From Mobula hypostoma (Eukaryota), in assembly GCF_963921235.1 (NCBI RefSeq), contig NC_086097.1:42162001-42226000 (forward strand): 64,000 bases of DNA, given 5' to 3'. Positions 22,581 to 57,428 of this stretch are shown here, piece by piece; position 1 is the first letter of the stretch; the number at the start of each line of letters is the position of its first letter. Under the pieces are notes generated by a model, which searched no databases, was not told where the DNA came from, and saw nothing but the letters and a program-made list of their open reading frames with translations. Position numbers and translations under genes: made by a program.

Positions 22581-23052
22581 CGCACTCTCAGCACCTTGGA
22601 TTCCTCATGATTAAGATCTTAAGAACATAAAAAAATGCAATCAAGAGTAGGCCATTCGGCCCCTTAAACTTCTCTACTATCAGTAAGATTGTGGGTAATC
22701 CTTCTGTACCACTAACCTTCACAAACCCCATAATCCTTATTCTGTGAATATTTGCAAATCTATCAACATCTGTCTTGGATACATTCAGTGGCCGAGCTTT
22801 TAAATCTCCCCTCAGTAGAGAATTCCAAAGATTCACCCAGTGAAGAAACTTCTCCTCATCTTTGTGCTATATTCATTTTCTCAGCAGACTGTTACCTTGT
22901 AGTCCTGCTCTGCCATTCAAAGGTTATGATTTATCCTCTGTCTAGAGTCTGTTATCCCAAACCCACAACATGAGTCCTTTGGTATCTAAAAATATGTGGG
23001 TCTCACCCTTGAATCATGTATTTCATGAACATCTACAATTCTCTGATGCAGA

Positions 23053-23737
23053 AGTAAGTGGTTTCTTCTTTTCTGTTACTGCATAGGCTAATTAAAATGG
23101 CTTCTTTGTTATGTTAACTGCTGAGAAATATCTCTCACTAGTAGTTTGTTTAGGATATATTATTGATAAGAGAAAGAAAGAACCAAGTGGGATAGATGTT
23201 ATTCTTTCTTGTGTGTCTGTAAGCTATTGTGATGCGCGGGTTTTTGAGCAGAAAGCGCGATGGGGAGAGAGAGAGTGGACGCGATGCTGTGAGCTGGCCG
23301 ACAGGAAGGACCCCGAGCCAGAGTCCGAGGTCCAGGGTCTTCGGCGAGGAGAGAAGAAGAAGATGGACTCGTGTGGAGCGTCTAGTCAACCACCGTGTTT
23401 GATACCAGGAGGGGAGCCGAGGTGGTCGGAGGGAATCAAATGGTGAAAAGAGGACCATTACTAGAACTCCAACTATTGTGCACAAAGAGGTTGAACTTTG
23501 ATAAGTTTGGCACCTTTTACTTTCCTTTTATATTTTATCTCTATTAATTACGTAGTTCCAGAAATATCTATAAATTGTAATCATTTACTCGTATATGGTG
23601 TATAGTCTGTTATTTGGCCGGGTGGGGTACATCACACAGCATCCACACAAACTTAATCACCAGTTTGGAGGGGCCAAAGGCTGCTTCCCCTAGACGACAG
23701 CGAGTTGAGCGAGCCTGAGGCTTACCAGGGGGCTACA
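23053..23737 (+). repeat. 5' LTR
   Basis: (a)gtaag...ggctaca; direct repeat of 26095-26781. Confidence 0.95.
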
Positions 23738-23739
23738 TT

Positions 23740-23757
23740 TGGAGGCTCGTCCGGGAT
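23740..23757 (+). promoter_or_regulatory. Primer binding site, tRNA-Pro
   Basis: TGGAGGCTCGTCCGGGAT, 17/18 match to the tRNA-Pro PBS TGGGGGCTCGTCCGGGAT. Confidence 0.9.
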
Positions 23758-23929
23758 TGAATTCAGTGGTGTGCTGCGTGATTGCCCTGTTTAAATCAGT
23801 GCTGCTGTGGCTCTGTGGGATTGCTGGTTATTACTGTATGTGTGTTGGTGGTGGGACCAGTGGCTGTCCATACTGTTAGGAGAGAGAGGAAAGAGTGGTC
23901 TAACTTGGAAATAGTGTCTGCGAATAAAT

Positions 23930-24310
23930 GTTCCCGCTCTGGCAGGCTCCGCCTGGCTTTTGGGATATTGTCCACCCCTAAAGGGGCGCAGACGTAGGAG
24001 ACGTGGGCGGAGTGGATCTCTCAGTTGTTAGATGAGTGGCAGTGCTCGGTTGAGGGAGAGTGACAGGGATTGGTTGAAAGTTTGAGTAGGCGGGCTGCTG
24101 ACGGTGTTAGAGCTGTCAGGTTCACTTACCCCGTAGTGACAGCTGCCAGTTATCTGAAAGAAGGGGAAAAGCTTTCAGTGTATCTTCTCTGGCTAGGAGG
24201 GCAGCTAAATTGCTTGCAGTGCCAGGGGGATCATTTCAGGGGATCAGCCCCTCCCTCAGTTGTTCAGCTGATCAGAGAGGTGTCCGGAAACTTAGTGGAG
24301 GCCCAGTGGG
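23930..24310 (+). pseudogene. PNMA/Ma-like gag remnant with internal deletions
   Basis: [60 protein letters not shown]. Confidence 0.75.
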
Positions 24311-24369
24311 GGAACAGCTTGGGGTTTCTGGGGGAGCACGTTCCCAGCAATGTACCAAGGAACATCCGA

Positions 24370-25200
24370 AAGGAAAAGACCCTATTCCTGAAGGCTTAGA
24401 GGGATCACACCCCAGTGTGTCATTACGGATAGATGGAAGCTATGCTAAGGCCATCCTCGACACCAGGGCATAGGTCAAGTTGTTGTACAGTTCATTTTAC
24501 AACCGGTGTCTGAAGCACTTACCCTTGACAACATTAAGGGCACTGGAGATTTGGGGTACCAGTGCCAGTGATTATCCAGAAGACGATGATTAGTTAGTGA
24601 ACCTGGAGTCCATGGGGGCGTTGTCTGTGCACACAGCATTTTGAGCTGCTTGTGAGGACGTGTGTAGCAGCCTTGGGCCAGTACCGAATTTAAACAAGAC
24701 CCGATTGTGGTACGGCCTGGGGGAAGTATCTGAGGGTGAGACCCTCTTAGTAGATGCTCCGAAATACCACAAGGGAGGGGAGTTGACCGCTAAAGACATC
24801 TCGGTGAGAGAGAGGTCGCAGCGACTGGACCCTGTAGCCGTGGAAGACATAGGCGGTGTGTGTGTGGAATATAGGACTCTGAACAGGCGCACTGTCATTG
24901 ACCAGAATACGGCCCTGAGGGCCAAAGACGCTACGGTCTGTTTGTATGGTGCGACGTGGTTTAACGTGCTGGATCTGAGGAGTGGATGTTGCCAGATCCC
25001 CATGAGTGAGGCCGACGAGGAGAAGACAGCCATTATAGGTTCCCTAGGATTCTTTTGATCTGAAAAGATGCCCCAGGGCATAACCAGAGCCCCTGCAACC
25101 TTCCCACGGGGCATGAAGAAGACCATGGGGAATGTGGAGTTTGGAGTTTTGGCGTATGTGGATGATCGCTTAGGGTTTGGATTCGCCTTGGGGGACGATG
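24370..25200 (+). pseudogene. Protease and N-terminal RT remnant
   Basis: [56 protein letters not shown]. Confidence 0.88.
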
Positions 25201-25217
25201 ATGTGAGGCGAGTGCCA

Positions 25218-25592
25218 GAGCCCGGGACAACCATTGAAGACTTGGAGTTCACGCTCATCAAAGTGGAGACGGAGAAATGGAATTCTGACCCGAAACTGCG
25301 GTCATGTATTGATGAATTAATGCAGAGAGATGAAACAATGTCCAACCTTCAAAAGGATCAGCAGACACTCAAGACATCGATCCAGAGCAGATTGGAAGAA
25401 GCTGGTGGTGTAATTGCATCCCAGATGGAGATGGACGCGAAACGGGAGTCAGAACTGCTGAGACTGGGGCGAAAGTTGGAGGAGTCAGAGGAGAAGCTGA
25501 CGTCTCGACTGCAGGAGGCTGAAGAGGCTGCAGAGGCAGCCCAGGCTAAATGCTTCAGTTTGGAGAAAATCAAACAGCAGCTATCGATCGAG
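25218..25592 (+). pseudogene. Three joined fragments of a sarcomeric myosin II heavy chain rod (possibly MYH16-like), intron-less, in frame with pol
   Basis: TIEDLEFTLIKVETEK..; [59 protein letters not shown]. These align ungapped to recalled MYH [37 protein letters not shown] and [27 protein letters not shown]. Confidence 0.9.
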
Positions 25593-26080
25593 GGAATGTG
25601 GAAGAATACGGATTCGAAGGATGATGTGCGGGATGTGTGGTACATGCTGCCTTTCACTAACTTCCCCTTGATTGAGGAAGAGACTTTTGACCCTTCTCCC
25701 ACTGAGTCAGGTGTAGTGGGGAGGGCTAGCTGTGGGCAGCCTGGGTTACAGCAGGACCCAGAAGGAAAAGAAGTGGGGCCCTGGACACGGGATAGGGGGC
25801 TCCGAGTTGCAGTGGAGGCATGAGTGAGAAATTGAGGAGTTGGCAAGCAGACCCGAGGTATCCCCAGTAGTGTCCGAGCCTTAGGGGTTTAGGTGAGAGG
25901 GTACCGGGGTCTCAGAGGATTAGGAAACTCCCAGATAGGTTGGCCTATGTAGCACCCGTGGGACCGGGCATAAGGTCCACTGTTTAGGGAGCGATGTCAC
26001 TGTGTGTACCTGGATTGGGTTTTTGTGTCTGCAGGAATGGTTGGAGAGTTATTTAGAAGTCATGAGGACATGACTTTATT

Positions 26081-26094
26081 TGGTGGGGGGAGAG
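26081..26094 (+). promoter_or_regulatory. Polypurine tract
   Basis: tggtggggggagag immediately before the 3' LTR TG. Confidence 0.8.
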
Positions 26095-26781
26095 TGTAAG
26101 GGGTTTCTTCTTTTATGTTACTGCGTAGGCTAATTAAAATGGCTTCTTTGTTATGTTAACTGCTGAGAAAGTTCTCTCGCTAGCAGCCTGTTTGGGTTAT
26201 ATTATTGATAAGAGAGAGAATGAACCAAGTGGGATAGATGTTATTCTTTCTTGTGTGTCTGTAAGCTATTGTGATGCGCGGGTTTTTGAGCAGAAGGCGC
26301 GATGGGGAGAGAGAGAGTGGACGCGATGCGGTGAGCTGGCCGACAGGAAGGACCCCGAGCCGGAGTCTGAGGTCCAGGGTCTTCGGCGAGGTGAGGAGAC
26401 GAAGACAGACTCGTGTGGAGCATCTGGTCGACCACCGTGGTTGATCCCAGGAGGCGGGTCGAGGTGGTCAGAGGGAATCGAATGGTGAAAAGAGGATCAT
26501 TACTAGAGCTCCAACTATTGTGCACGAAGAGGTTGAACTTTGATAAGTTTGGCCCCTTTTACTTTCCTTTTATATTTTATCTCTATTAATTACATAGTTC
26601 CAGAAATATCTATAAATTGTAATCATTTACTCATATATGGTGTATAGTCTGTTATTTGGCCGGGTGGGGTACATCACACAGCATCCACACAAACTTAATT
26701 ACCCAGTTTGGAGGGCCCAAAGGCTGCTTCCCCTAGACAACAGTGAGTTGAATGAGCCTGAGGCTTACCAGGGGGGCTACA
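26095..26781 (+). repeat. 3' LTR
   Basis: tgtaag...ggctaca followed by TSD caga. Confidence 0.95.
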
Positions 26782-28589
26782 CAGAGAATTTGAGATATTC
26801 AACCTTCTGCATAAATACATTCTACAAACATGCATGTAAAGCAGTTTATCCTCATCTCAGTCCTAAATGGTTGACATGATCCTAAAACTTTGTCCCCTGG
26901 TTGTAGACTTTCCAGTTAATGGAAGCATCAAATTGGCAACCACCTTGTTAATCTATCTCAAAACTCTGCATTGATCATTGCTCATTCTTCTGAACTCTAG
27001 TGAGTAGTGGCCAGTCCTATACAATTTCTTTTCATTAGGCAATCCCCCAGTGGATAAAGCGGTAGTTAACTATCCAAGCTTACAAGTGGCACTAAGTTAG
27101 GAAGCATAATAAATTGCAGATCCAAAACTTTAGCTTGGCTAACATAGATTGTCATTTGCATTCCAAGACACGGAAATCTTTCCTTGAACTTTCCTATTCA
27201 TTTCCCTTTCTGACTTTAGACACAATCCCTAAAATTTGCCTCCACCTCCTGAAGTCCTCTTTAATTTTGCATCAATTTTTGTTTAATGAAAACTTAGCAT
27301 GTTTTATTGGTTTAAAGGTACTTGGGAAAAGCAAACTACTATTAGAATGGAGTTCACATAGGAGCATTCAAGATATTAGGTCACAGAACAGCAGTTATCT
27401 GCTATATCCATGCTGCTTCTTGGAATAGTTCTCCTTTTTTGTTTTTCCTTACAGTTTTATTAATTTACATGCCAATTTGCATTTTTCTCGTTTCCATGAT
27501 GAGTCAGTGCTGTTTAATGTAATTAATGTCCATTGAATAAATTGTTCAAATCATTGTGTTCTTAAAAATATGAGTACTTGCAGCTTTTCAATGGTTTGGA
27601 AATATCAGATGCATTTTAAAATATTGACCATTCCTATATTTTTAAATTAAAATGTTTTGGATATGATGCAACAAAATATTTAAATTAACATTGTTCCATT
27701 TAAAGCATTTATTTCAAAGACGATCAGCTCAATAAGAATCATTATCGCTGTGTTTACTCCTAAACCATATCAAGTAACCTGTCAGAGAAGTCTTTGTGTG
27801 ACTTGTTAAATATTGATCGGTTTAAAGTAGAGCTATTGATTAGTTTTGGTGGATTACACAGAATAAATAAACTAAGGCAATGGTTTTGCTTCTTCTAGTA
27901 GTTCAGTGCAAGCTCGCCACAAGCAGTAGCAACAGACAGACCAGCTTTCAGTTCCACAAGCCATTCTCTGTGGAGGTAACTGACATGGTGGAGACCAGTT
28001 CCCTCCATTGCCTTTGGTTCAGGGAATGTTGTGGAGATTCCAGTAGCAAATCAGAAAACTCTCTGCTCAGATGAGCACAGGATTATTACTGCTGCTAGTG
28101 CCACCTGACGACAATTACAGGTAGAAATTTGTCCTCCAACACTTGAAGGTAGCACATAATATCCCAACAAGTGACGGGCAGCTACTGCTGACACTTGCCT
28201 TCTTTTCACATCCAAAGATTCATACTGGAAGAGATGGTCATTGACTGCCCATATGCCAGTCCCACATGTCTACTAGTTCCTCTCTGCCCCACAACGTATC
28301 CTCCAACCTTTGCTTTGGTGGATGACTACCTTTTTATCATTTCACTTTGCCAATACTAGTATTTTCTTCAGAATCCAGCATTCACATGAGGGTTGATTGG
28401 TAATGAGTTGAGCAGAAGGGTGGAAGGTAGCCAGGTGGGATATTTTGGGATGTGTGGTAGAGAACTATAAGGCTTGTAATCAGAGGAGACTCATCTTGTG
28501 AAAGAAAACAAACAAAAATCATGTGCTTCATAACGTGTCCCTCGAATGTTTGCAACCCTAATCAAAGAGAAGGTTAGAAATTTACAGCA

Positions 28590-32954: not shown

Positions 32955-33209
32955 TATGGCAGCTCGCCCACGCAGCAAGTCAACCGGCTCCAGCAGTCGC
33001 CGGTGAACCCGCAGCCAGTGGCAACCGAGAGGAATCTGAGTGTGGGGCAGACCTCGGCCTGGAGGCCAACATTGCTTCCGCCCCACAGAGAGCAGAGGTT
33101 GCTGGGAGCGGGTACTTAAGTACGCGCCGATTCAAACAGTAAACGATTCAACCAGACCCTGCTCAACTCAGTGTGTTGTTTTCACTCGTAGCATATCAGC
33201 GCAACTACA
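32955..33209 (+). repeat. 5' LTR
   Basis: tatggcagc...actaca; repeat of 36981-37235. Confidence 0.95.
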
Positions 33210-33210
33210 T

Positions 33211-33224
33211 TGGTGACCCCGACG
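33211..33224 (+). promoter_or_regulatory. Primer binding site, tRNA-Trp
   Basis: TGGTGACCCCGACG matches the first 14 nt of the tRNA-Trp PBS. Confidence 0.88.
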
Positions 33225-33247
33225 GTCCAACGACATTTGGACCCAAC

Positions 33248-33954
33248 ATGAACGACTCGGCTCTGCAGAATACAGTTTCCCTTAAACTGCCAACCTTCTG
33301 GACCACTCAACCCCTGGTCTGGTTTGAGCAAGCGGAGGCCCAGTACCAGGTCAGGCAAATTGTCGCAGACACCACCAAGTATTACTACATGGTGGGCGCC
33401 CTCGACCAGGAGACAGTGAGTCGCGTTATCGACTTTCTGCATCAGCTCCCGGCAACAGACAGATACGAGGCACTCAAGGCCCTGCTAATCCGCACATTTG
33501 GCCTCTCCCACCGTGAACAGGCCGCGCGGTTACTGCATATGGACGGCCTGGGCGACCGCGCACCATCAGCCCTGATTTGCAACATGCTAGCACTGGCTGA
33601 TGGCCATAAGCCTTGCCTGCTGTTTGAACAGATCTTCTTGGAGCAAATGCCAAAGGACATCCACCTCCTGCTAGCAGATGAAGACTTCAGAGACCCGCGC
33701 GGGGTGACTGCCCGCACGGACGTGCTTTGGCGCGCCAAACAAATGGGCCAAACCACCATCGGAATTAGTGCTGCAGCACGGCCGAAAGCCCAGCCCTCCC
33801 ACACCCCAGCAGCGGAGCACCTTTACACCCACACCAAGGGACGGCACCACTTCTGAGTCTTGGTGGTTTTATCATCAAGGGTGGGGTTCCGGGGACCGCT
33901 GCTGCTGATCGCCATGCTCGTTTCAGGGAAAACGCCAGGACCAGCCGTAACTGA
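33248..33954 (+). pseudogene. gag with degenerate CHCC motif
   Basis: MNDSALQNTVSLKLPTFWTTQP..TKYYYMVGALD; W(C)FYHQ.WG...C..PCSFQ at ~33862-33930. Confidence 0.85.
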
Positions 33955-36900
33955 TGGATACGGCGGCTGGTCAAAGTGATAGCCTCCTCTATGTTTGGGA
34001 CAAGCTCTCCGGGAGAAGATTCCTGGTGGAGATGGGGGCGGAAATCAGTATCCTACCCCCCTCGAGCCATGATACCCGAACTAGAGGAACAGGACCAGAA
34101 CTTACGGCAGCCAACAGCAGCACCACCCACATCTACAGCACAAGAACCATCCCCTTGCAGTTCGGTTCCCGCCGCTTTACATGGACATTTACGCTGGCTG
34201 CAGTGTCACAGCCACTGCTAGGTGCGGACTTCCTCCGCGCACACTGCCTGCTTATGGATTTGAAGGGACGACAATTGGTCGATGCAAAGACGTTCCAGAC
34301 TTTCTCCCTTGCCGAGGCCAGGTTACCGGCCCCGCGCCTGGACTCTGTCACTCATTCCGACAACGAGTTCGCCAGTGTTATCGGAGTTCCCATCTATCAT
34401 CGCGTCGCAGTTTTCCTCAACAAACCCCAAGCACAGCGTGATGCACCACATCCCCACACAGGGACATCCCCTTCATGCCGGGCCCGCAGGCTACCGCCCA
34501 ACAAACTCCGCCTCACGAAGGAGGAATTCATGAAGATGGAGGAGATGGGGATTGTGCTGCATTCCGACAGTCCGTGGGCCTCCCCACTCCATTTGGTGCC
34601 CAAGTCCACGGGAGGGTGGAGACCGTGCGGCGACTATCGGAGGCTGAACAACGCCACCACGTCCGATCGCTATCTGGTACTGCACATCCAGGACTTTACG
34701 GCCAACCTGCATGGGGTACACATCTTTTCGAAGATTGACCGGTCCAAGGGTATCATCAGATCCCAGTCCACCCGGATGATGTATCCAAGACGGCCCTCAT
34801 TACCCCTTTTCGCCTGTTCAAGTTCCTCAGGATGCCGTTCAGGCTCAAAAACGCGGCGCAGACTTTCCAGCGCTTGATGGACGCAGTAGGGTGAGGTCTG
34901 GACTTTCTGTTCATCTATCTGGATGACAAACTTATCGCCAGCCGCTCCCACCAGGAACATTTAGCACATCTACGCCTGCTCTGCCGCCACCTAAGTGACT
35001 ACGGCCTGGTTATCAACCCCGCCAAGTGCCAGTTCGGCCTACCCGCCATCGACTCCTTGGGACACCGGATCGACCACCATGGAGCTGTCCTCTGCCGGAG
35101 AAAGTTGAGGCCATCCGCCAATTCACCAGGCCCAGCGCTGTTAAAGGCCTGCAGGAGTTTGCTGGGATGGCTAACTTTTACCACCGTTTCCTGCCCTCAG
35201 CGGCCTGGATCATGCGGCCCCTTTTTGACTTGATGTCCGGCAAGGTCAAAGAGATCACCTGGACAGAGGAGGCGAAGGCGGCTTTCGAATAAGCCAAGAA
35301 CGCGCCAGCAAACGCCATGCTCCTAGTCCACCCCCGGGTCGACGTCCCCACTGCCCTCACTGTGGATGCCTCCAATGTGGCAGTTGACGGTGTGCTCGAG
35401 CAGCTCATCGAAGGCCAGTGGAAGCCGCTCGCGTTTTTCAGCTGGCATCTACGATTCCCGGAACTTAAGTACAGCGCTTTCGACAGGGAGCTGCTGGCCC
35501 TGTACCTTGCCATCCGGCACTTCAGGTATTTCCTGGAGGGGAGCGAGTTCACGGTCTTCACAGACCACAAGCCCCTCACTTTCGCGTTTACCGAAGTGTC
35601 GGACCCGTGGTCGGGCCGCCAACAACGCCATCTGTCGTACATCTCGGAGTTTACCACCACGATCAAGCACATCTCCAGAAGGAACAACGTGGTGGCAGAC
35701 GCACTGTCACGAACCTCCATCCAATCAGTGTACTCTCTGTCTCCGGGGGTGGATTATGCAGCATGAGCTGAGGCGCAATGGCTGGATGGAGAGATGTCGG
35801 TGTACCGAACCACAGTCTCAGGACTCCGCCTCGAAGATATACCCACTGGGCTTGAAGGTAAGAAGCTCCTTTGCGATGTGTCCACCGGGAAACCTTGGCC
35901 CATTCTCCCGACCGCGTGGAGGCACCGCGTTTTTGACACCTTGCACGGTTTAGCCCACCCTTCCATCCGGGCCACCATCCGGCTGATCGCAGACAGGTTT
36001 GTGTGGCACGGCCTACGCAAGGAGGTCAGGCACTGGACCAGGACATGCACGCACTGTCAAACATCCAAAATCCAGAGGTACGTGAGGGCCCCACTGCAAC
36101 CCTTCCAGCCGACACATAGGAGGTTTGAACATGTCCACATGGATATCGTCGGCCCACTGCCGGTTTCGAGAGGAGCGAGATACCTGTTCACCATGGTGAA
36201 CAGGTTCACGAGGTGGCCGGCAGCTGTCCCACTCGCTGACACGGCCACGGAGACATGCGCCAGAGCCCTGATTACCACCTGGGTGGCACGGTTCGGACTC
36301 CCAGCCCACGTCACTTCAGACACGGGTGTGCAGTTCACATCGGCTTTGTGGTCTGCACTGGCACAACTGCTCGGAACCCAGCTCCACCGAGCGACTGCTT
36401 ACCACCCACAGTCTAAGGCACTTGAAGTCGGCCCTGATGGCACACCTCCGAGGGCCAGACTGGGTGCTGCTTGGCATCCGCACGGCACCCAAGGAGGACC
36501 TGGCAGCATCATCGGTCGAACTGGTTTACGGTGCCCCATTCACAGTTCCCGGTGAGTTTGTGCCTGCATCCCGTGGCCGGGAGGACACACCTGCTGGGGT
36601 CCTAACTAAACCCCGGGAGCGGCTTGGAACACTTGTTCCAGTCCGGACGTCCCATCATGGAACAACACCCTCTTTCATGCCCAGGGACCTACAACAGAGC
36701 AAGTATGTTTTCATTCGCCGAAGCGGGCACAGACCACCCCTGCAGCGACCATACGAGGGACCCTACAAGGTGGTGCGCCATAATGGAGCGATTGTGTTCT
36801 CCACATCGGCGGTCGGGACGAGACTTTTACCATTGACCATCTCAAACCGGCGCATCTGGACCTTGAATGCCCGGTTGCGGTACCACCCCCATGACGTCGA

Positions 36901-36960
36901 GGCCGGCCACCTAAAAGAACTGAGAGTGTGCAGGCTGCGGACTCTGCACCTCCTATCGCC
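33954..36960 (+). pseudogene. pol (protease, RT, RNase H, integrase), disrupted
   Basis: FLVEMGAEIS (DTG mutated), WRPCGDYRRLN, FIYLDD, YSAFDRELLA..TDHKPL, HHCC, HMDIVGPLP, SDTGVQFTS, RPYEGPYKV; deletion after YHPQS removes the catalytic E. Confidence 0.92.
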
Positions 36961-36980
36961 AGTTCTGAGGGGGGGGGTCA

Positions 36981-37235
36981 TGTGGCAGCTCGCCCACTCA
37001 GCAAGCGAACCGGCTCCAGCAGTCGCCGGCGAACCCGCAGCCAGCGGCAACCGATAGGAATCTGAGTGTGGGGCAGACCTCGGCCCGGAGGCCGACGTCG
37101 CTTCCGCCCCGCAGAGAGCGGGGGTTGCTGGGAGCGGGTACTTAAGCACGTCCCGATTCAAACAGTAAACGGTTCAACCAGACCCTGCTCGACTCAGTGT
37201 CTTGCTTTCACTCGCAGCATATCAGCATGACTACA
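36981..37235 (+). repeat. 3' LTR
   Basis: tgtggcagc...actaca after PPT gaggggggggg. Confidence 0.95.
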
Positions 37236-47574: not shown

Positions 47575-49195
47575 TACATTAGAACATTGGGCCCAATAAA
47601 GTTTGCCAAATTCCTAATCACATAGTGTGTTAAAATAACCATTGAGTTAAGATTTGAAATTCTCTAAGGTACCACCCTGAACAACACAACTAGGTAGTTT
47701 ATTCTATGTGCCCACAACACGCTGTGTAAAAAAAAAATGCTTCCTGATGTAAGTCTGAAGTCTCCTTTCAACTAGTCTTCGCCTATAGCCCTATGTCCTC
47801 AATGAAGGATTAATTTTGGATTAGTAGCTAGCATCCATGCTACCTATCCCTTACTGTTTTTCAACATTTCTATCATGTCTCCTCTCATTCTACGTCTACT
47901 TGGGCTAAAAAGATTTAATTATTTCAATCACCTTTCTCTGAACTCTCTTCAATGCCTTCACATCCCTCACAAAATATGGAGACCAAAACTGTATACGGTA
48001 TTCAAGGTGTGGCAGCATTATCAGCCGAAGAACGATAACCTGAACACCCATTGGCTAGTAGCACCCTGCTATCTGTATTAACCCAAGCAAATGTCTAGCT
48101 GGAGACTTTCTCAGCATTTAACATAACAAAGAAGCCATTTTAATTCACAAACACAGCAATTTAAAAGATTAACATAACAAAGAAGCCATTTTAAATTTAA
48201 CATACAAAAAAAAAGATGCTGTACATATGTATATATTTAATCACTCATGTAGTTGATCTATTGTTTTTATTCTTCTTTCAACCTTGGGTATAAACATTTC
48301 CGGCACTGTGTGTATTACCTCTTTAAATCTTTCTCATTGTTCCCCAACTGACTCAACATCAAGCAGTTCCTTCCAGTTTACCTTCTGAAGTCTTTGCTGC
48401 ATCTGCACAAACTTTGCCTTTCGGAAATTCAATTTAATGGCTTTGATTTTTACTGAAAACTCTCCCAAAAAAAAAACTTCCAGACTAGCAAGATTATGAT
48501 CCCTTGTTCCTAAAGGCTCAACAACTTCTGTACTCAAAATTCTATCCTGATTGTTACGGAATATCAAATCTATACAGGCCTCTCTTCTTGTTGGTGCATT
48601 TACATACTGGATCAAAAAACAATCATTCAATAACTCAATGAATTCACTTTCCTGTAATCTATTAGTCACTGAGTTCTCCCACTCAAAAGTTGGTAAATTA
48701 AAGTCATCCATAACTATAACATCACCCTCAGAAATTGGTTTTCTATTATTCTGATAGAGTTAAATGAATTCACTTTCCCGTAATCTATTAGTCACTGGGT
48801 TCTCCCACTCAATATTTTGGAAATTAAAGTCACCCATAACTATAACATCACCCTCAGAAATTGGTTTTCTAATATTCTGATAGAGTTGTTTATTAAAATC
48901 ATTATCAACATTAGGGGTCTATAACATACACTCAATGTTATTCCTTTATCCTTATAGCCTTCAATTCTCACCCAGATATCTTCAGAGTCTTGATTCATCT
49001 CTTATCAAAAGCATCATGTTTAAATTCTCTCTTTTGTATATAGCTGCTCCTCTACCTTTACACTCTTGTCTATCTTTCCTAAGTGAAGTATATCTTTTAA
49101 CACTATATTCATCTCCAGCCTTTGAGGTCAGACAGGTTTCTGTTATTGCTATTATAGCATACTTATATGCACTTACATATAATTCCAGCTCCTGG
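47575..49195 (-). mobile_element. Old CR1-group LINE fragments (EN and 3' end)
   Basis: AIIAITETCL; DDFNLPTFEW..FLIQYVNAPTRREACIDLIF..LGTRDHN. Confidence 0.75.
48637..48887. repeat. Tandem duplication, two ~125-bp copies
   Basis: 48637-48761 repeated at 48763-48887. Confidence 0.9.
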
Positions 49196-54539: not shown

Positions 54540-54650
54540 GCTTCTATCCTCCATTCGTTGGGTGTTTTATGGTGAAATTTCCCTGCTATTAGTGAAAGAA
54601 GTTCTTGCAATTTCAGTCATAATTTCTCCTTCATCTATTCATCACACAGA
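54540..54650. repeat. 111-bp direct repeat, left copy (putative TSD)
   Basis: 8 mismatches versus 57318-57428 by manual count. Confidence 0.9.
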
Positions 54651-57317
54651 CTCTGACTCTGCTTTCTGTAGAGTAGAGCTAATAGGACTTGATGTTTCAA
54701 TCCTTGTGATAAGTCGGCACTCTCGATATTGGTGGTGGGCTTGGAGTGGTGACAAGGAGGGACGGTAGGTACCTCATTGGGGGGTCATCAGGTGGGCACC
54801 CTCCTTCTTTGACGTTTCGTTGGTAAGCCCACGATGTCTCCAGAGGGCTCAACGGTGCTACCTGGCATCTCAGATACACCCCCCTCAGTTCCATACCCTC
54901 CTGTCTTCATCTTGCAGCCCAGTTGTTCTCTTTTCTTTTAATCCAAATCCAATTGCTGCTTTCTTCTGCTGCATTTAACAGGGACTTGATTGGTTGTTGG
55001 AGGGAGTGACCCCTCACCCCCATCTTCCTCAATAGACTGGTCGTAGATGTAGCAACGAATCCCCTGCATCTCACTTCTACAAGGAAAATCTTGGTCTTCC
55101 AGCCATCCTGGGCAGCTTCAGTTGCCAATTCAGAGTATTTGGTCTTTTTCCTCTCATAAGCTTCTTCAATACCATCTTCCCATGGTGCTCTCAATTCCAC
55201 AACATATGCTAGCTTGGCTGTTGTGGACCACAGGACCATGTCTGGCCGGAGTGTTGTAGCCGCAATGTCTGGGGGAAACACAAGCTTTTTTTCCCCAAGT
55301 CCACGCCCATTTTCCATTACTGAGCAACCTGCAGAATGCTTACATCTTTTGATGTTATGTGGTGCTCTGGAGGTTGGCCTGCTGGTACAAATCGTGTAAT
55401 GTCAACATTTCTTGCCGATGGTTGTGGGAGAGCATTTGTGGTGATTCGCCTCTGTTCCAAGATTGATGCCAGCTGTCTGAGAACTTGGTTATGCTGCCAA
55501 GTATACTGCTCCTGACTGAGGCTCATGGTGCATCATGTTAAAATGCGCCTTATTGATCCAGGTGCTTGTCAAAGAGAACAAGCGGGGACTTCTCCCCACC
55601 ACTGGTTTAGGTTGTGGGGTGTGGGTAGGAGGTCATAAGTGGCTCTGATGACAAAACTTAGTCAAGATCCCCCCATCTCCCAGATGTCACGCCAGCTGAG
55701 CTTCCTCTTTTCCAGGCTCTCCCAATTAGTCCATTGGCCCTGCTTGGCCATTGAGATGGCCCTGCCGTGTCGCTCTGTCTCCTCCTGTCTTCTCACCTCC
55801 TCCACCACAAGCCGTCTCTTCTGCAGTGATGTTGCCTTGTGCCATTGAGGAGCCTTTGGGATGAGCCCAAGCCCGGCTCTCCCATGTTGGACTTGGCCAA
55901 CCACATCTCTGAAGTGAAGAGCAGACTTAGCACTCTGAACAGCTTCAGATGGGGTTCACTTCCTCCCCGTTGCCACACGGGGGGGCCACTGTTCAAATAA
56001 CAGTATCTTCAGATTCAGTGAGGGTCATGACCAACCTTGCTTTGGTGCATTTGAATTCTTCCACAAGACTTGCAATTGGTAATTCCAATTTGTCATTCCC
56101 ATACGGTCCAACAGGACTTAAGCATCGTGGGAGTCCAAGCCACTGTTTCACATGTGTGCTGATCACTCTTTCGAGCTTTTCCACCTTGTTGATGGGGATT
56201 TCCTAGTTAAAAGTCACATGAGTCTTGGGAGTATGCCGAACTGGAAGCACCACAGCTGGAGTTTTTCTGGCAGCCAGGTCTTGTTGATGCCAGCTATCTA
56301 CATGGTGGTACCCTTTTTGAGTTGTTCAAACTGCTCAGTGTCCTTGAGCTTGCATCATACTCTTCACTGCCCAAATTCTTCACTGGCATTTCTGGAACAG
56401 TTGGGATGGGTGTTCCGTCAATATGAAATCTTTGATCTACGACGTGACCTTTGACAATGGAGATGCTTCTACACTTGCTGGGCTTGATTTTCATCCTCGC
56501 CCATGTGATGTTCTGATGAAGCTTTTCTTGGTGCGGGGGACAGTTGTCGTCAATATTGTTATATAATCCATACAGTCTCGTATCGGTGGTAACCACTGAC
56601 CAAACTGTAGCCAGTTTCCTCCCGCAACCCATTTTGAGGCTCAGATAATGAGCTCCATTGCCATAGTGAAGGCCAATGGGGAGATGGTGCACCCCGCCAT
56701 GATGCCTATTTGCTGTGGTGAAGCCTAATGTTGTGAGACAAACTTGCAGATCCTGGAAGTAGTGTTTTACCAGATTTGTTGTTGTTGCAGGCACCTGAAA
56801 GAATTCAAAAGCAGTCCACAGTAGGGAATGAGGAACAGATCCACAGGCGTTGGCCAGGTTGAGGAACAAGACATGCAGATCCTTCCTTTCTTTCTTAGCC
56901 ATCCGGATTTGATGCCATATGACACTGGTATGTTCAAGATATCACAAGAAGCCTGCTATGCCAGCCTTTTGGATTGACGTATCAATGAAATGGTACTTTG
57001 TAAGTCTTTGCACCAACACGCTAAAAAAGATCCTGGCTTCTATGTTCAGAAGGTTTATTTGGCGAAACTGTTCGATGGTGGACGAATTCTTTTCTTTTGG
57101 GATCAGAACTCCACCCCCCCCCCACTCTTCTCCAGGCTTTGGCGATCACTTGCTTTTCCCACGCAACCCTTATGTTTCTCCAGAGAAATTTCAGAACATC
57201 CAGGGCATTCTTGTAGACACAATACGGAACACCGTTAGGGCCTGATGCTGATGCCGATCTTGCCTTCTTCATTGCCTCTTTCACCTCACTCAGCTTGCGA
57301 GGGCTGAGTTGGGACAA
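54651..57317 (-). mobile_element. HERO-like (R2 superfamily, RLE) non-LTR retrotransposon, 5'-truncated
   Basis: KKARSASASGPNGVPY, LNLANACGSVPH, YTWQHNQVL after a CCHC remnant, RPDMVLWS..VELRAPWE..YERKKTKY..VEVRCRGF; (agagtc) tail. Confidence 0.88.
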
Positions 57318-57428
57318 GCTTCTATCCTCCATTCGTCGGGTGTTTTATGGTGAAATTACCCCGCTATTAGTGGAAGAAGTTCTTGCAGTTTCAGTCAAAA
57401 TTTCTCTTTGATCTATTCATCACACAGA
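57318..57428. repeat. 111-bp direct repeat, right copy (putative TSD)
   Basis: Abuts the 5' truncation point of the HERO-like element. Confidence 0.9.

What the first reader, a model, noticed from the sequence alone, without database searches (positions are those of the whole stretch)
23930..25823. Gag-PR-RT'-myosin frame preserved across many deletions: likely a mobilised chimeric family
Seen: protease (24210 frame), the RT piece (24660) and the RT-myosin ORF (25068) share one frame. It is broken only by isolated point stops at ~24471, 24591, 24642 and 25056, although gag, pol and myosin are mosaics of short retained blocks. Gag is offset by -1 near ccggaaac (~24283), as expected of a native gag-pol frameshift. 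The LTRs differ by only ~7% in the first ~215 bp (manual count), while the interior is heavily rearranged. Inference: the rearrangements predate this insertion, so a non-autonomous master with an open chimeric ORF was copied in trans. This suggests selection for translation (packaging in cis, NMD avoidance, or a Gag-coiled-coil product).
Basis: partly seen in the sequence, partly recalled or inferred. Interest (0 to 1): 0.75.

Follow-up and report, generated by a model that had tools for sequence, protein, structure and literature searches.

The report
Myosin-stuffed jumping gene keeps reading frame
This is a dead copy of a ray retrotransposon family whose enzymes are wrecked and partly replaced by muscle-myosin scraps, yet one long reading frame runs through the patchwork, likely because copies had to be translated end to end in order to spread.

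Summary
A Ty3/Gypsy LTR element (LTRs 6.4% apart) carries protease, RT and myosin-rod pieces in one frame with exactly four stops. It belongs to a multi-copy family of myliobatiform rays with shared breakpoints. The scan noted this family at least eight times on other DNA, mostly calling the myosin useless cargo.

New here is evidence that the frame itself was under selection. All 9 junctions inside the ORF keep frame; all 3 in the Pol-derived tail behind the stop break it (p=0.0045). Family contigs show 8 of 10 measurable rearrangements as multiples of three. Three Hypanus sabinus loci encode an unbroken 729-residue Gag-protease-RT-myosin chain that has lost 33-39% of invariant RT residues.

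Protein sequence is not conserved: the protease motif, zinc knuckle, RNase H and integrase are gone, a compensated frameshift is tolerated, and subfamilies keep different myosin pieces. The best reading is selection for translation in cis, like mouse IAP 1Δ1, with myosin as frame-safe filler.

Caveats: this copy has two more stops in gag, no gag ATG and a non-canonical slip site. Translation was not shown, and gene models favour open copies. New variant of known kinds.

The parts
23049..23052 (+). Left target-site duplication (4 bp)
   Evidence: Same four bases at 26782-26785
23053..23737 (+). 5' LTR; its first base departs from the TG of the 3' LTR
   Evidence: 93% identical to the 3' LTR; 44 of 683 sites differ
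23740..23757 (+). Primer-binding site, tRNA-Pro-like (tRNA match recalled, not tested)
   Evidence: Sits 2 bases behind the 5' LTR end
23944..24396 (+). Deleted gag remnant (PNMA-type capsid N-terminal piece, no zinc knuckle), frame mod3=1, stops at 23995 and 24061, no ATG
   Evidence: Pfam PNMA E 1.9e-6; blocks against P0048/P0050
24285..24291 (+). Position of the gag/pol -1 slip site; heptamer non-canonical in this copy
   Evidence: Frames of gag and pol blocks; downstream fold z 0.45
24312..24680 (+). Protease remnant (Pol 3-101 and 156-178 of P0181), catalytic motif broken, stops at 24471, 24591, 24642
   Evidence: 55 of 99 and 9 of 23 identical; invariant sites kept 1 of 6
24681..24721 (+). 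Pol piece read out of its native frame: compensated frameshift pair shared with H. sabinus and M. birostris members
   Evidence: 1 of 400 shuffles; truncated model P0025 ends in the native-frame reading; alignment
24732..25190 (+). Linker and RT blocks (Pol 216-225, 351-372, 408-500, 505-519), stop at 25056
   Evidence: RVT_1; Ty3 RT
25233..25592 (+). Three intron-less sarcomeric myosin rod blocks (P0188 970-1016, 1161-1197, 1406-1440), in place of RNase H and integrase
   Evidence: 18/47, 22/37, 22/35 identical; PDB myosins; the first block crosses a likely exon border at 990/991 without a gap. MYH16-like by NCBI's names only
25614..25823 (+). Pol C-terminal tail block (1333-1374) and end of the chimeric ORF; stop 271 bases before the 3' LTR
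   Evidence: 14 of 42 identical
25886..26096 (+). Pol-derived tail behind the stop: three blocks in three different frames (internal control); polypurine tract at 26083-26094
   Evidence: Scores 65, 59, 54 against P0181 1451-1522
26095..26781 (+). 3' LTR (TG...CA)

Best explanation
This is a decayed copy of a non-autonomous Ty3/Gypsy family of rays whose source elements kept one long open frame through broken gag, protease, RT and myosin pieces, likely because ribosomes had to read the RNA almost to its 3' end for it to survive and be copied by a helper element. Shown: the anatomy, the family, shared breakpoints, frame-keeping inside but not behind the ORF, and loss of enzyme residues. Inferred: a spliced myosin mRNA was captured by template switching; masters were copied with helper proteins in trans; a stop near the 3' LTR would leave a short 3' UTR and so avoid nonsense-mediated decay, or would route the translated RNA to helper particles. 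The amino-acid sequence likely matters little. Myosin rod mRNA would be good filler because its repeats make deletions fall in frame. This copy has decayed neutrally since insertion.
For: (1) Frame-blind block mapping: 9 of 9 junctions between blocks scoring >=35 inside the ORF keep frame; 3 of 3 behind the stop change it (Fisher p=0.0045; p=0.0025 with microhomology priors). (2) Independent of gene models: 8 of 10 measurable rearrangements in family contigs are multiples of three (p=0.003 at 1/3, 0.012 at 0.4), 4 of 5 inside the pol frame (p=0.045-0.087). Listed small indels in the ORF are two compensating pairs and one +3, against six non-triplet rows in the tail (table 4, 12 of 19 rows shown). 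(3) 3 of 10 proteins in one H. sabinus cluster (9 loci, 6 contigs) are unbroken 729-aa chains. They keep only 28-31 of 46 RT sites that 64 autonomous relatives keep at 96%, which predicts 9-12 stops and frameshifts even at the low bound, against 0 (P about 1e-4 or less). (4) Sequence is free: protease invariant sites kept 1/6 to 4/8, capsid 3/5 to 5/9; compensated frameshift; the window and H. sabinus myosin pieces overlap by only about 24-34 codons; heptad windows 0-25% against 42-45% in real rods. (5) This copy: 4 stops against 2.0 expected since insertion (P=0.14), 0 net frameshifts against 1.1-2.5; at 2 of the 4 stops nearly all laid family depth reads another letter.
Against: No translation or NMD data. 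RNA-labelled runs are guesses and hold contigs only. RefSeq models favour open copies, so closed subfamilies are invisible in the protein sets. The 2 myosin-myosin junctions are in frame 76-98% of the time by microhomology alone. Fixed differences in the RT piece alone predict only 1.9 stops (P0=0.15). This copy has no gag ATG and a non-canonical slip site, so how its master entered the pol frame is unknown. The window lineage keeps invariant RT sites better than variable ones (36/46 against 34/65, p=0.006), which leaves room for some protein constraint. The score cut-off of 35 was chosen after viewing the blocks; 11 of 21 Pol blocks and 1 of 4 myosin blocks were dropped. The frameshift rate rests on 5 events.
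Confidence: 0.5

Rival explanations
1. The fusion protein itself works in cis: the Gag-protease-RT-myosin chain would co-assemble with helper particles, through its capsid piece or a coiled-coil tail, and pull its own RNA in, as proposed for IAP 1Δ1.
For: Reviews state that the IAP 1Δ1 gag-pol fusion protein acts in cis. The capsid N-terminal piece still scores as PNMA. The last myosin block (about 1414-1437) is kept in nearly all members that reach it. The H. sabinus ORF makes the full chain without a ribosomal shift. Earlier unchecked notes report other ray Gypsy families with in-frame SH3KBP1 and RABEP1 pieces.
Against: No zinc knuckle and no whole capsid. Capsid invariant sites are kept no better than RT sites (only 9 sites). 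Subfamilies keep different myosin pieces, some with up to 5 prolines, and heptads are eroded.
Confidence: 0.27
2. Neutral history: the frame is a by-product of coding parents, in-frame microhomology and our seeing only open copies.
For: Identical k-mers lie in frame 0.38-0.43 of the time in this ORF (k=3-6) and 0.76-0.98 in a simulated myosin rod. Window lesions (4) fall within the low bound of the neutral expectation (4.3, P=0.57). Window-versus-family differences look neutral (19 missense, 11 silent; p=0.43).
Against: The tail comes from the same Pol gene yet is frameshifted 3 of 3 times. Contig rearrangements are not filtered by annotation. An open 729-codon frame with a third of invariant RT sites lost has P about 1e-8 (1e-4 at the low bound) and is present at several loci.
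Confidence: 0.17
3. Host-kept gene: one or more loci were domesticated, for example as a dominant-negative restriction factor against the helper, and the host keeps the frame open.
For: Several gene models splice host exons into the element or carry host gene names (P0006, P0015, P0036).
Against: Open copies are paralogues 91-97% alike, not one conserved orthologue; this copy has 6 stops; structures differ between species.
Confidence: 0.06

Closest known systems
Mouse IAP 1Δ1 non-autonomous elements (PMC6466679 and PMC7411935, passages read; the primary paper Saito et al. 2008, PMC2413153, was not held)
   Same: A deleted, helper-dependent LTR element that keeps an in-frame gag-pol fusion ORF, reported to aid its own retrotransposition in cis.
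   Different: Ty3/Gypsy rather than a betaretrovirus-like ERV; many deletions rather than one; host myosin in the frame; heavy missense decay and compensated frameshifts; spread over three ray genera; no functional test here.
LTR-mediated retroposition chimeras (Tan et al. 2016, PMC5131818, abstract and passages read)
   Same: Partial spliced mRNA between discontinuous LTR-element halves, secondary mobilisation, shared switch points.
   Different: Their older retrocopies mostly lost the frame (14 of 21 with a loss-of-function change) or showed protein constraint. Here the frame is kept while the protein decays.
Maize Bs1 (passages in PMC5131818 and PMC13317346)
   Same: LTR element with host gene pieces fused into one translated hybrid ORF, partly out of the parental frame; copies share switch points.
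   Different: Bs1 has 1-5 copies and is read as a new host gene; this family is abundant and still looks selfish.
NMD evasion by unspliced retroviral RNA (RSV stability element; PMC2925335, abstract read)
   Same: Same problem: a full-length RNA with an early stop and a long 3' UTR is a decay target.
   Different: RSV uses an RNA element behind the gag stop; here the inferred solution is to push the stop to within 271 bases of the 3' LTR. The parallel with defective interfering RNAs that keep fused ORFs is recalled; PMC9610340 (passages) shows one in-frame fusion case only.

Membership tests
Ty3/Gypsy LTR retrotransposon | Paired LTRs with TG...CA ends and a short target-site duplication | tested here: met
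   the first base of the 5' LTR is changed
Ty3/Gypsy LTR retrotransposon | Primer-binding site and polypurine tract | tested here: inconclusive
   Both sit in the expected places; the tRNA match is recalled, not computed
Ty3/Gypsy LTR retrotransposon | gag, then pol in the order PR-RT-RH-IN, with Ty3-type RT | tested here: met
   Blocks are collinear with P0181, which has RT, RNase H and integrase in that order; RH and IN are deleted in the window
Autonomous Ty3/Gypsy element | Intact protease, RT, RNase H, integrase and zinc knuckle | tested here: not met
LTR-mediated retrocopy (Tan et al. 2016) | Intron-less host mRNA piece between discontinuous halves of one LTR element | tested here: met
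   Pol before and after the myosin; an ungapped block crosses a border where an eel gene model skips exons. Same border in the ray donor is assumed
LTR-mediated retrocopy (Tan et al. 2016) | DNA microsimilarity at the switch points | not testable with these tools
   No DNA of the donor gene or helper was held; only protein-level overlap at junctions
LTR-mediated retrocopy (Tan et al. 2016) | Secondary retroposition: copies share switch points | tested here: met
   Myosin-to-Pol junction in 9 of 24 proteins, inner myosin junction in 14 of 24 plus one approximate
IAP 1Δ1-like cis-translated non-autonomous element | Deletion leaves an open gag-pol fusion ORF | tested here: met
   Met for the H. 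sabinus subfamily; not shown for this copy's gag join
IAP 1Δ1-like cis-translated non-autonomous element | Translation or the product is needed in cis for mobilisation | not testable with these tools
   Only indirect evolutionary evidence
IAP 1Δ1 (as a family) | Betaretrovirus-like class II ERV of mouse | tested here: not met
   PNMA-type gag and Ty3-type RT
MYH16 (donor gene) | Closest myosin paralogue is MYH16 | not tested
   No MYH16 sequence came back; the label rests on NCBI names and earlier notes

The most novel reading that the evidence does not exclude
Ray non-autonomous Gypsy families repeatedly recruit host coiled-coil mRNA pieces (myosin rod here; SH3KBP1 and RABEP1 in unchecked notes on sister families) as in-frame tails on a dead Gag-Pol chain, and that chain docks the translating RNA onto helper particles: a general hijacking module built from stolen coiled coils.
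Probability: 0.15. Interest if true: 0.78.

Novelty: new variant of a known kind. Interest (0 to 1): 0.5.

Why it matters
LTR retroelements are usually taken to be packaged in trans, so dead family members should lose their reading frames. The IAP 1Δ1 case says translation can matter in cis, but it is one deletion in one species. Here several lineages across three ray genera keep a frame while the protein rots, with a built-in control (the frameshifted tail). That makes 'translation for its own sake' testable from genomes alone. It also explains a set of false 'myosin' and host-isoform gene models in ray annotations.

Tried and rejected
No genome is held for this window, so copies could not be counted or dated; summed contig depths are no copy number. 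No RNA holder was listed on record; two RNA-guessed runs cover all 30 bins with family contigs, which is neither proof nor disproof of expression. AlphaFold2 of P0015 on 11 near-identical rows gave pLDDT 28.9: uninformative, not evidence of disorder. The ESM Atlas confirmed 'myosin tail' only. Three homologue searches returned no ray myosin donor. A heptad screen of the stored search hits found no second captured coiled coil, but those hits were selected by RT likeness. tblastn failed on a wrong option and was replaced by a frame-blind chaining script. Rejected: single-copy accident; a working enzyme; the 116-codon frame in each LTR as meaningful (not tested statistically; such lengths occur by chance). 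Paper searches with myosin/LTR/stingray and non-autonomous/gypsy/cartilaginous terms listed no description of this family; the library lacks most subscription journals and Saito 2008. Earlier-note searches by sequence and relatives were empty, and no note held all the words on frame selection.

Full report
Observation. The element runs from 23053 to 26781 between 4-bp duplications, with LTRs 44 of 683 sites apart, a primer site and a polypurine tract. Pfam finds a PNMA-type gag piece and RT; PDB finds Ty3 RT and sarcomeric myosin rod.

Family. No genome was held. A protein search gave 14 hits, all from myliobatiform rays: 5 Mobula hypostoma, 4 M. birostris, 3 Hypanus sabinus, 2 Hemitrygon akajei. 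The longer-protein search gave P0015 and 7 fish myosins. P0015 is a 729-residue unbroken gag-protease-RT-myosin-tail chain; its cluster has 10 proteins from 9 loci on 6 contigs, 3 of them 729 residues long; six long ones are 91-97% alike. Two DNA-guessed runs laid 8591 and 7796 contigs on the internal region, most under 95% alike. Mapping 24 family proteins on an unnamed autonomous Pol (P0181) and an anchovy myosin (P0188) shows shared breakpoints: the inner myosin junction near 1195/1403 in 14 plus one approximate, the myosin-to-Pol junction in 9, the RT gap 372/408 in 6, and the 1016/1161 myosin gap in 3. So the rearrangements predate this insertion. Earlier scan notes describe the same family at eight or more other places and give about a thousand copies (copy number not checked here).

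Origin of the myosin. The first block aligns without a gap over 47 codons and crosses position 990/991, where an eel gene model skips exons, so a spliced mRNA is the likely source, as in LTR-mediated retroposition (PMC5131818, abstract and passages). The MYH16 label comes from NCBI's names and was not tested.

Is the frame selected? Test 1: a chaining script with one flat jump cost, blind to frame. Of 21 Pol blocks 10 scored 35 or more, and of 4 myosin blocks 3; the rest were dropped, and the cut-off was set after viewing. The 10 blocks inside the ORF share one frame (9 of 9 transitions); the 3 Pol blocks behind the stop lie in three frames (p=0.0045). Microhomology raises the in-frame prior to about 0.4 in pol and 0.76-0.98 in myosin, which leaves p=0.0025. 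One transition is only a one-codon gap and one hides the compensated pair. Test 2, free of annotation bias: of the 12 shown rows of joints with known inserts (10 places; 3 rows not shown), 8 places are multiples of three, and 4 of the 5 inside the pol frame (p=0.003-0.012 and 0.045-0.087). Two of the eight span the gag/pol border, where a triplet length need not keep the pol frame. Test 3: H. sabinus chains keep 28-31 of 46 invariant RT sites and M. birostris 20 of 36, against 96% in 64 autonomous relatives. At 0.054 stops per missense and 0.023 frameshifts per substitution (5 events) this predicts 17-21 lesions (9-12 at the low bound) against 0. These models were seen because they are open, but a chance of 1e-4 to 1e-9 at several loci is hard to put down to picking. 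Against: the window copy alone gives 4 against 9.8 (range 4.3-19), and fixed RT differences between subfamilies predict only 1.9 stops.

This copy. From the LTR divergence 2.0 new stops and 1.1-2.5 frameshifts are expected since insertion; 4 and 0 are seen. At 24471 and 24642 nearly all family depth reads another letter, so those stops are private; the other two are not among the 40 of 380 rows shown. Differences from the family are 19 missense to 11 silent, as neutral decay predicts (30 of 32 rows kept). The copy is dead and was likely open in the pol frame when it inserted.

What is selected? Not the enzymes: protease invariant sites kept 1/6 to 4/8, RT gutted, RNase H, integrase and zinc knuckle absent. 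Not clearly the capsid piece (3/5 to 5/9 kept, only 9 sites). Not clearly the coiled coil: window and H. sabinus pieces overlap by about 24-34 codons, and heptad-like windows are 0-25% against 42-45% in real rods. The H. sabinus chain even reads the end of gag in the wrong frame. One result cuts the other way: the window lineage keeps invariant RT sites better than variable ones (p=0.006), while H. sabinus does not (p=0.55). The simplest reading is that translation itself was favoured. The stop lies 271 bases before the 3' LTR, which would shorten the 3' UTR; long 3' UTRs expose unspliced retroviral RNA to nonsense-mediated decay (PMC2925335, abstract). That step is inferred.

Comparison. It works like mouse IAP 1Δ1, whose gag-pol fusion is reported to help retrotransposition in cis (PMC6466679, PMC7411935, passages; primary paper not held), but is not a member of that family. 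It is an LTR-mediated retrocopy like maize Bs1, but abundant and with a decaying protein. Earlier notes call the myosin useless cargo; I agree about its sequence and disagree about its frame. Notes on sister families with in-frame SH3KBP1 and RABEP1 pieces were not checked and feed only the novel case. Two paper searches listed no description of the family; no supplements were read.

Verdict. Real feature, new variant of known kinds. Selection on the frame about 0.8; translation per se 0.5, protein acting in cis 0.27, neutral 0.17, host gene 0.06. Interest 0.5.

Noticed in passing
window 32957-37235: A second, full-length Ty3/Gypsy element of another lineage (LTRs 27 of 256 sites apart) with at least 3 frameshifts in pol; used as a neutral-decay control.
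   Followed up: partly
P0006, P0013, P0015, P0036: Ray gene models named SDHAF3, TMEM192 and GSTT2 isoforms contain or consist of this element; P0006 appears to splice a host exon into the myosin piece.
   Followed up: no
window 23096-23446 and 26138-26488: A 116-codon stop-free frame lies in both LTRs; model P0014 reads from the myosin piece into it.
   Followed up: no
window 48079-48194, minus strand: Short pieces like the start of this LTR (80-100% over 26-91 bases), perhaps a related LTR remnant.
   Followed up: no
window 54540-57428: A 111-base direct repeat 2.8 kb apart flanks a minus-strand RT-like frame (56297-56941).
   Followed up: no
P0181 cluster: An unnamed ENA Pol of 1522 residues matches this family up to the last codons before the LTR, the closest helper-like relative found.
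   Followed up: partly
P0002, P0003, P0004, P0015, P0023: At least four different Pol-to-myosin junctions exist in the family, either later deletions across one capture point or repeated captures.
   Followed up: partly
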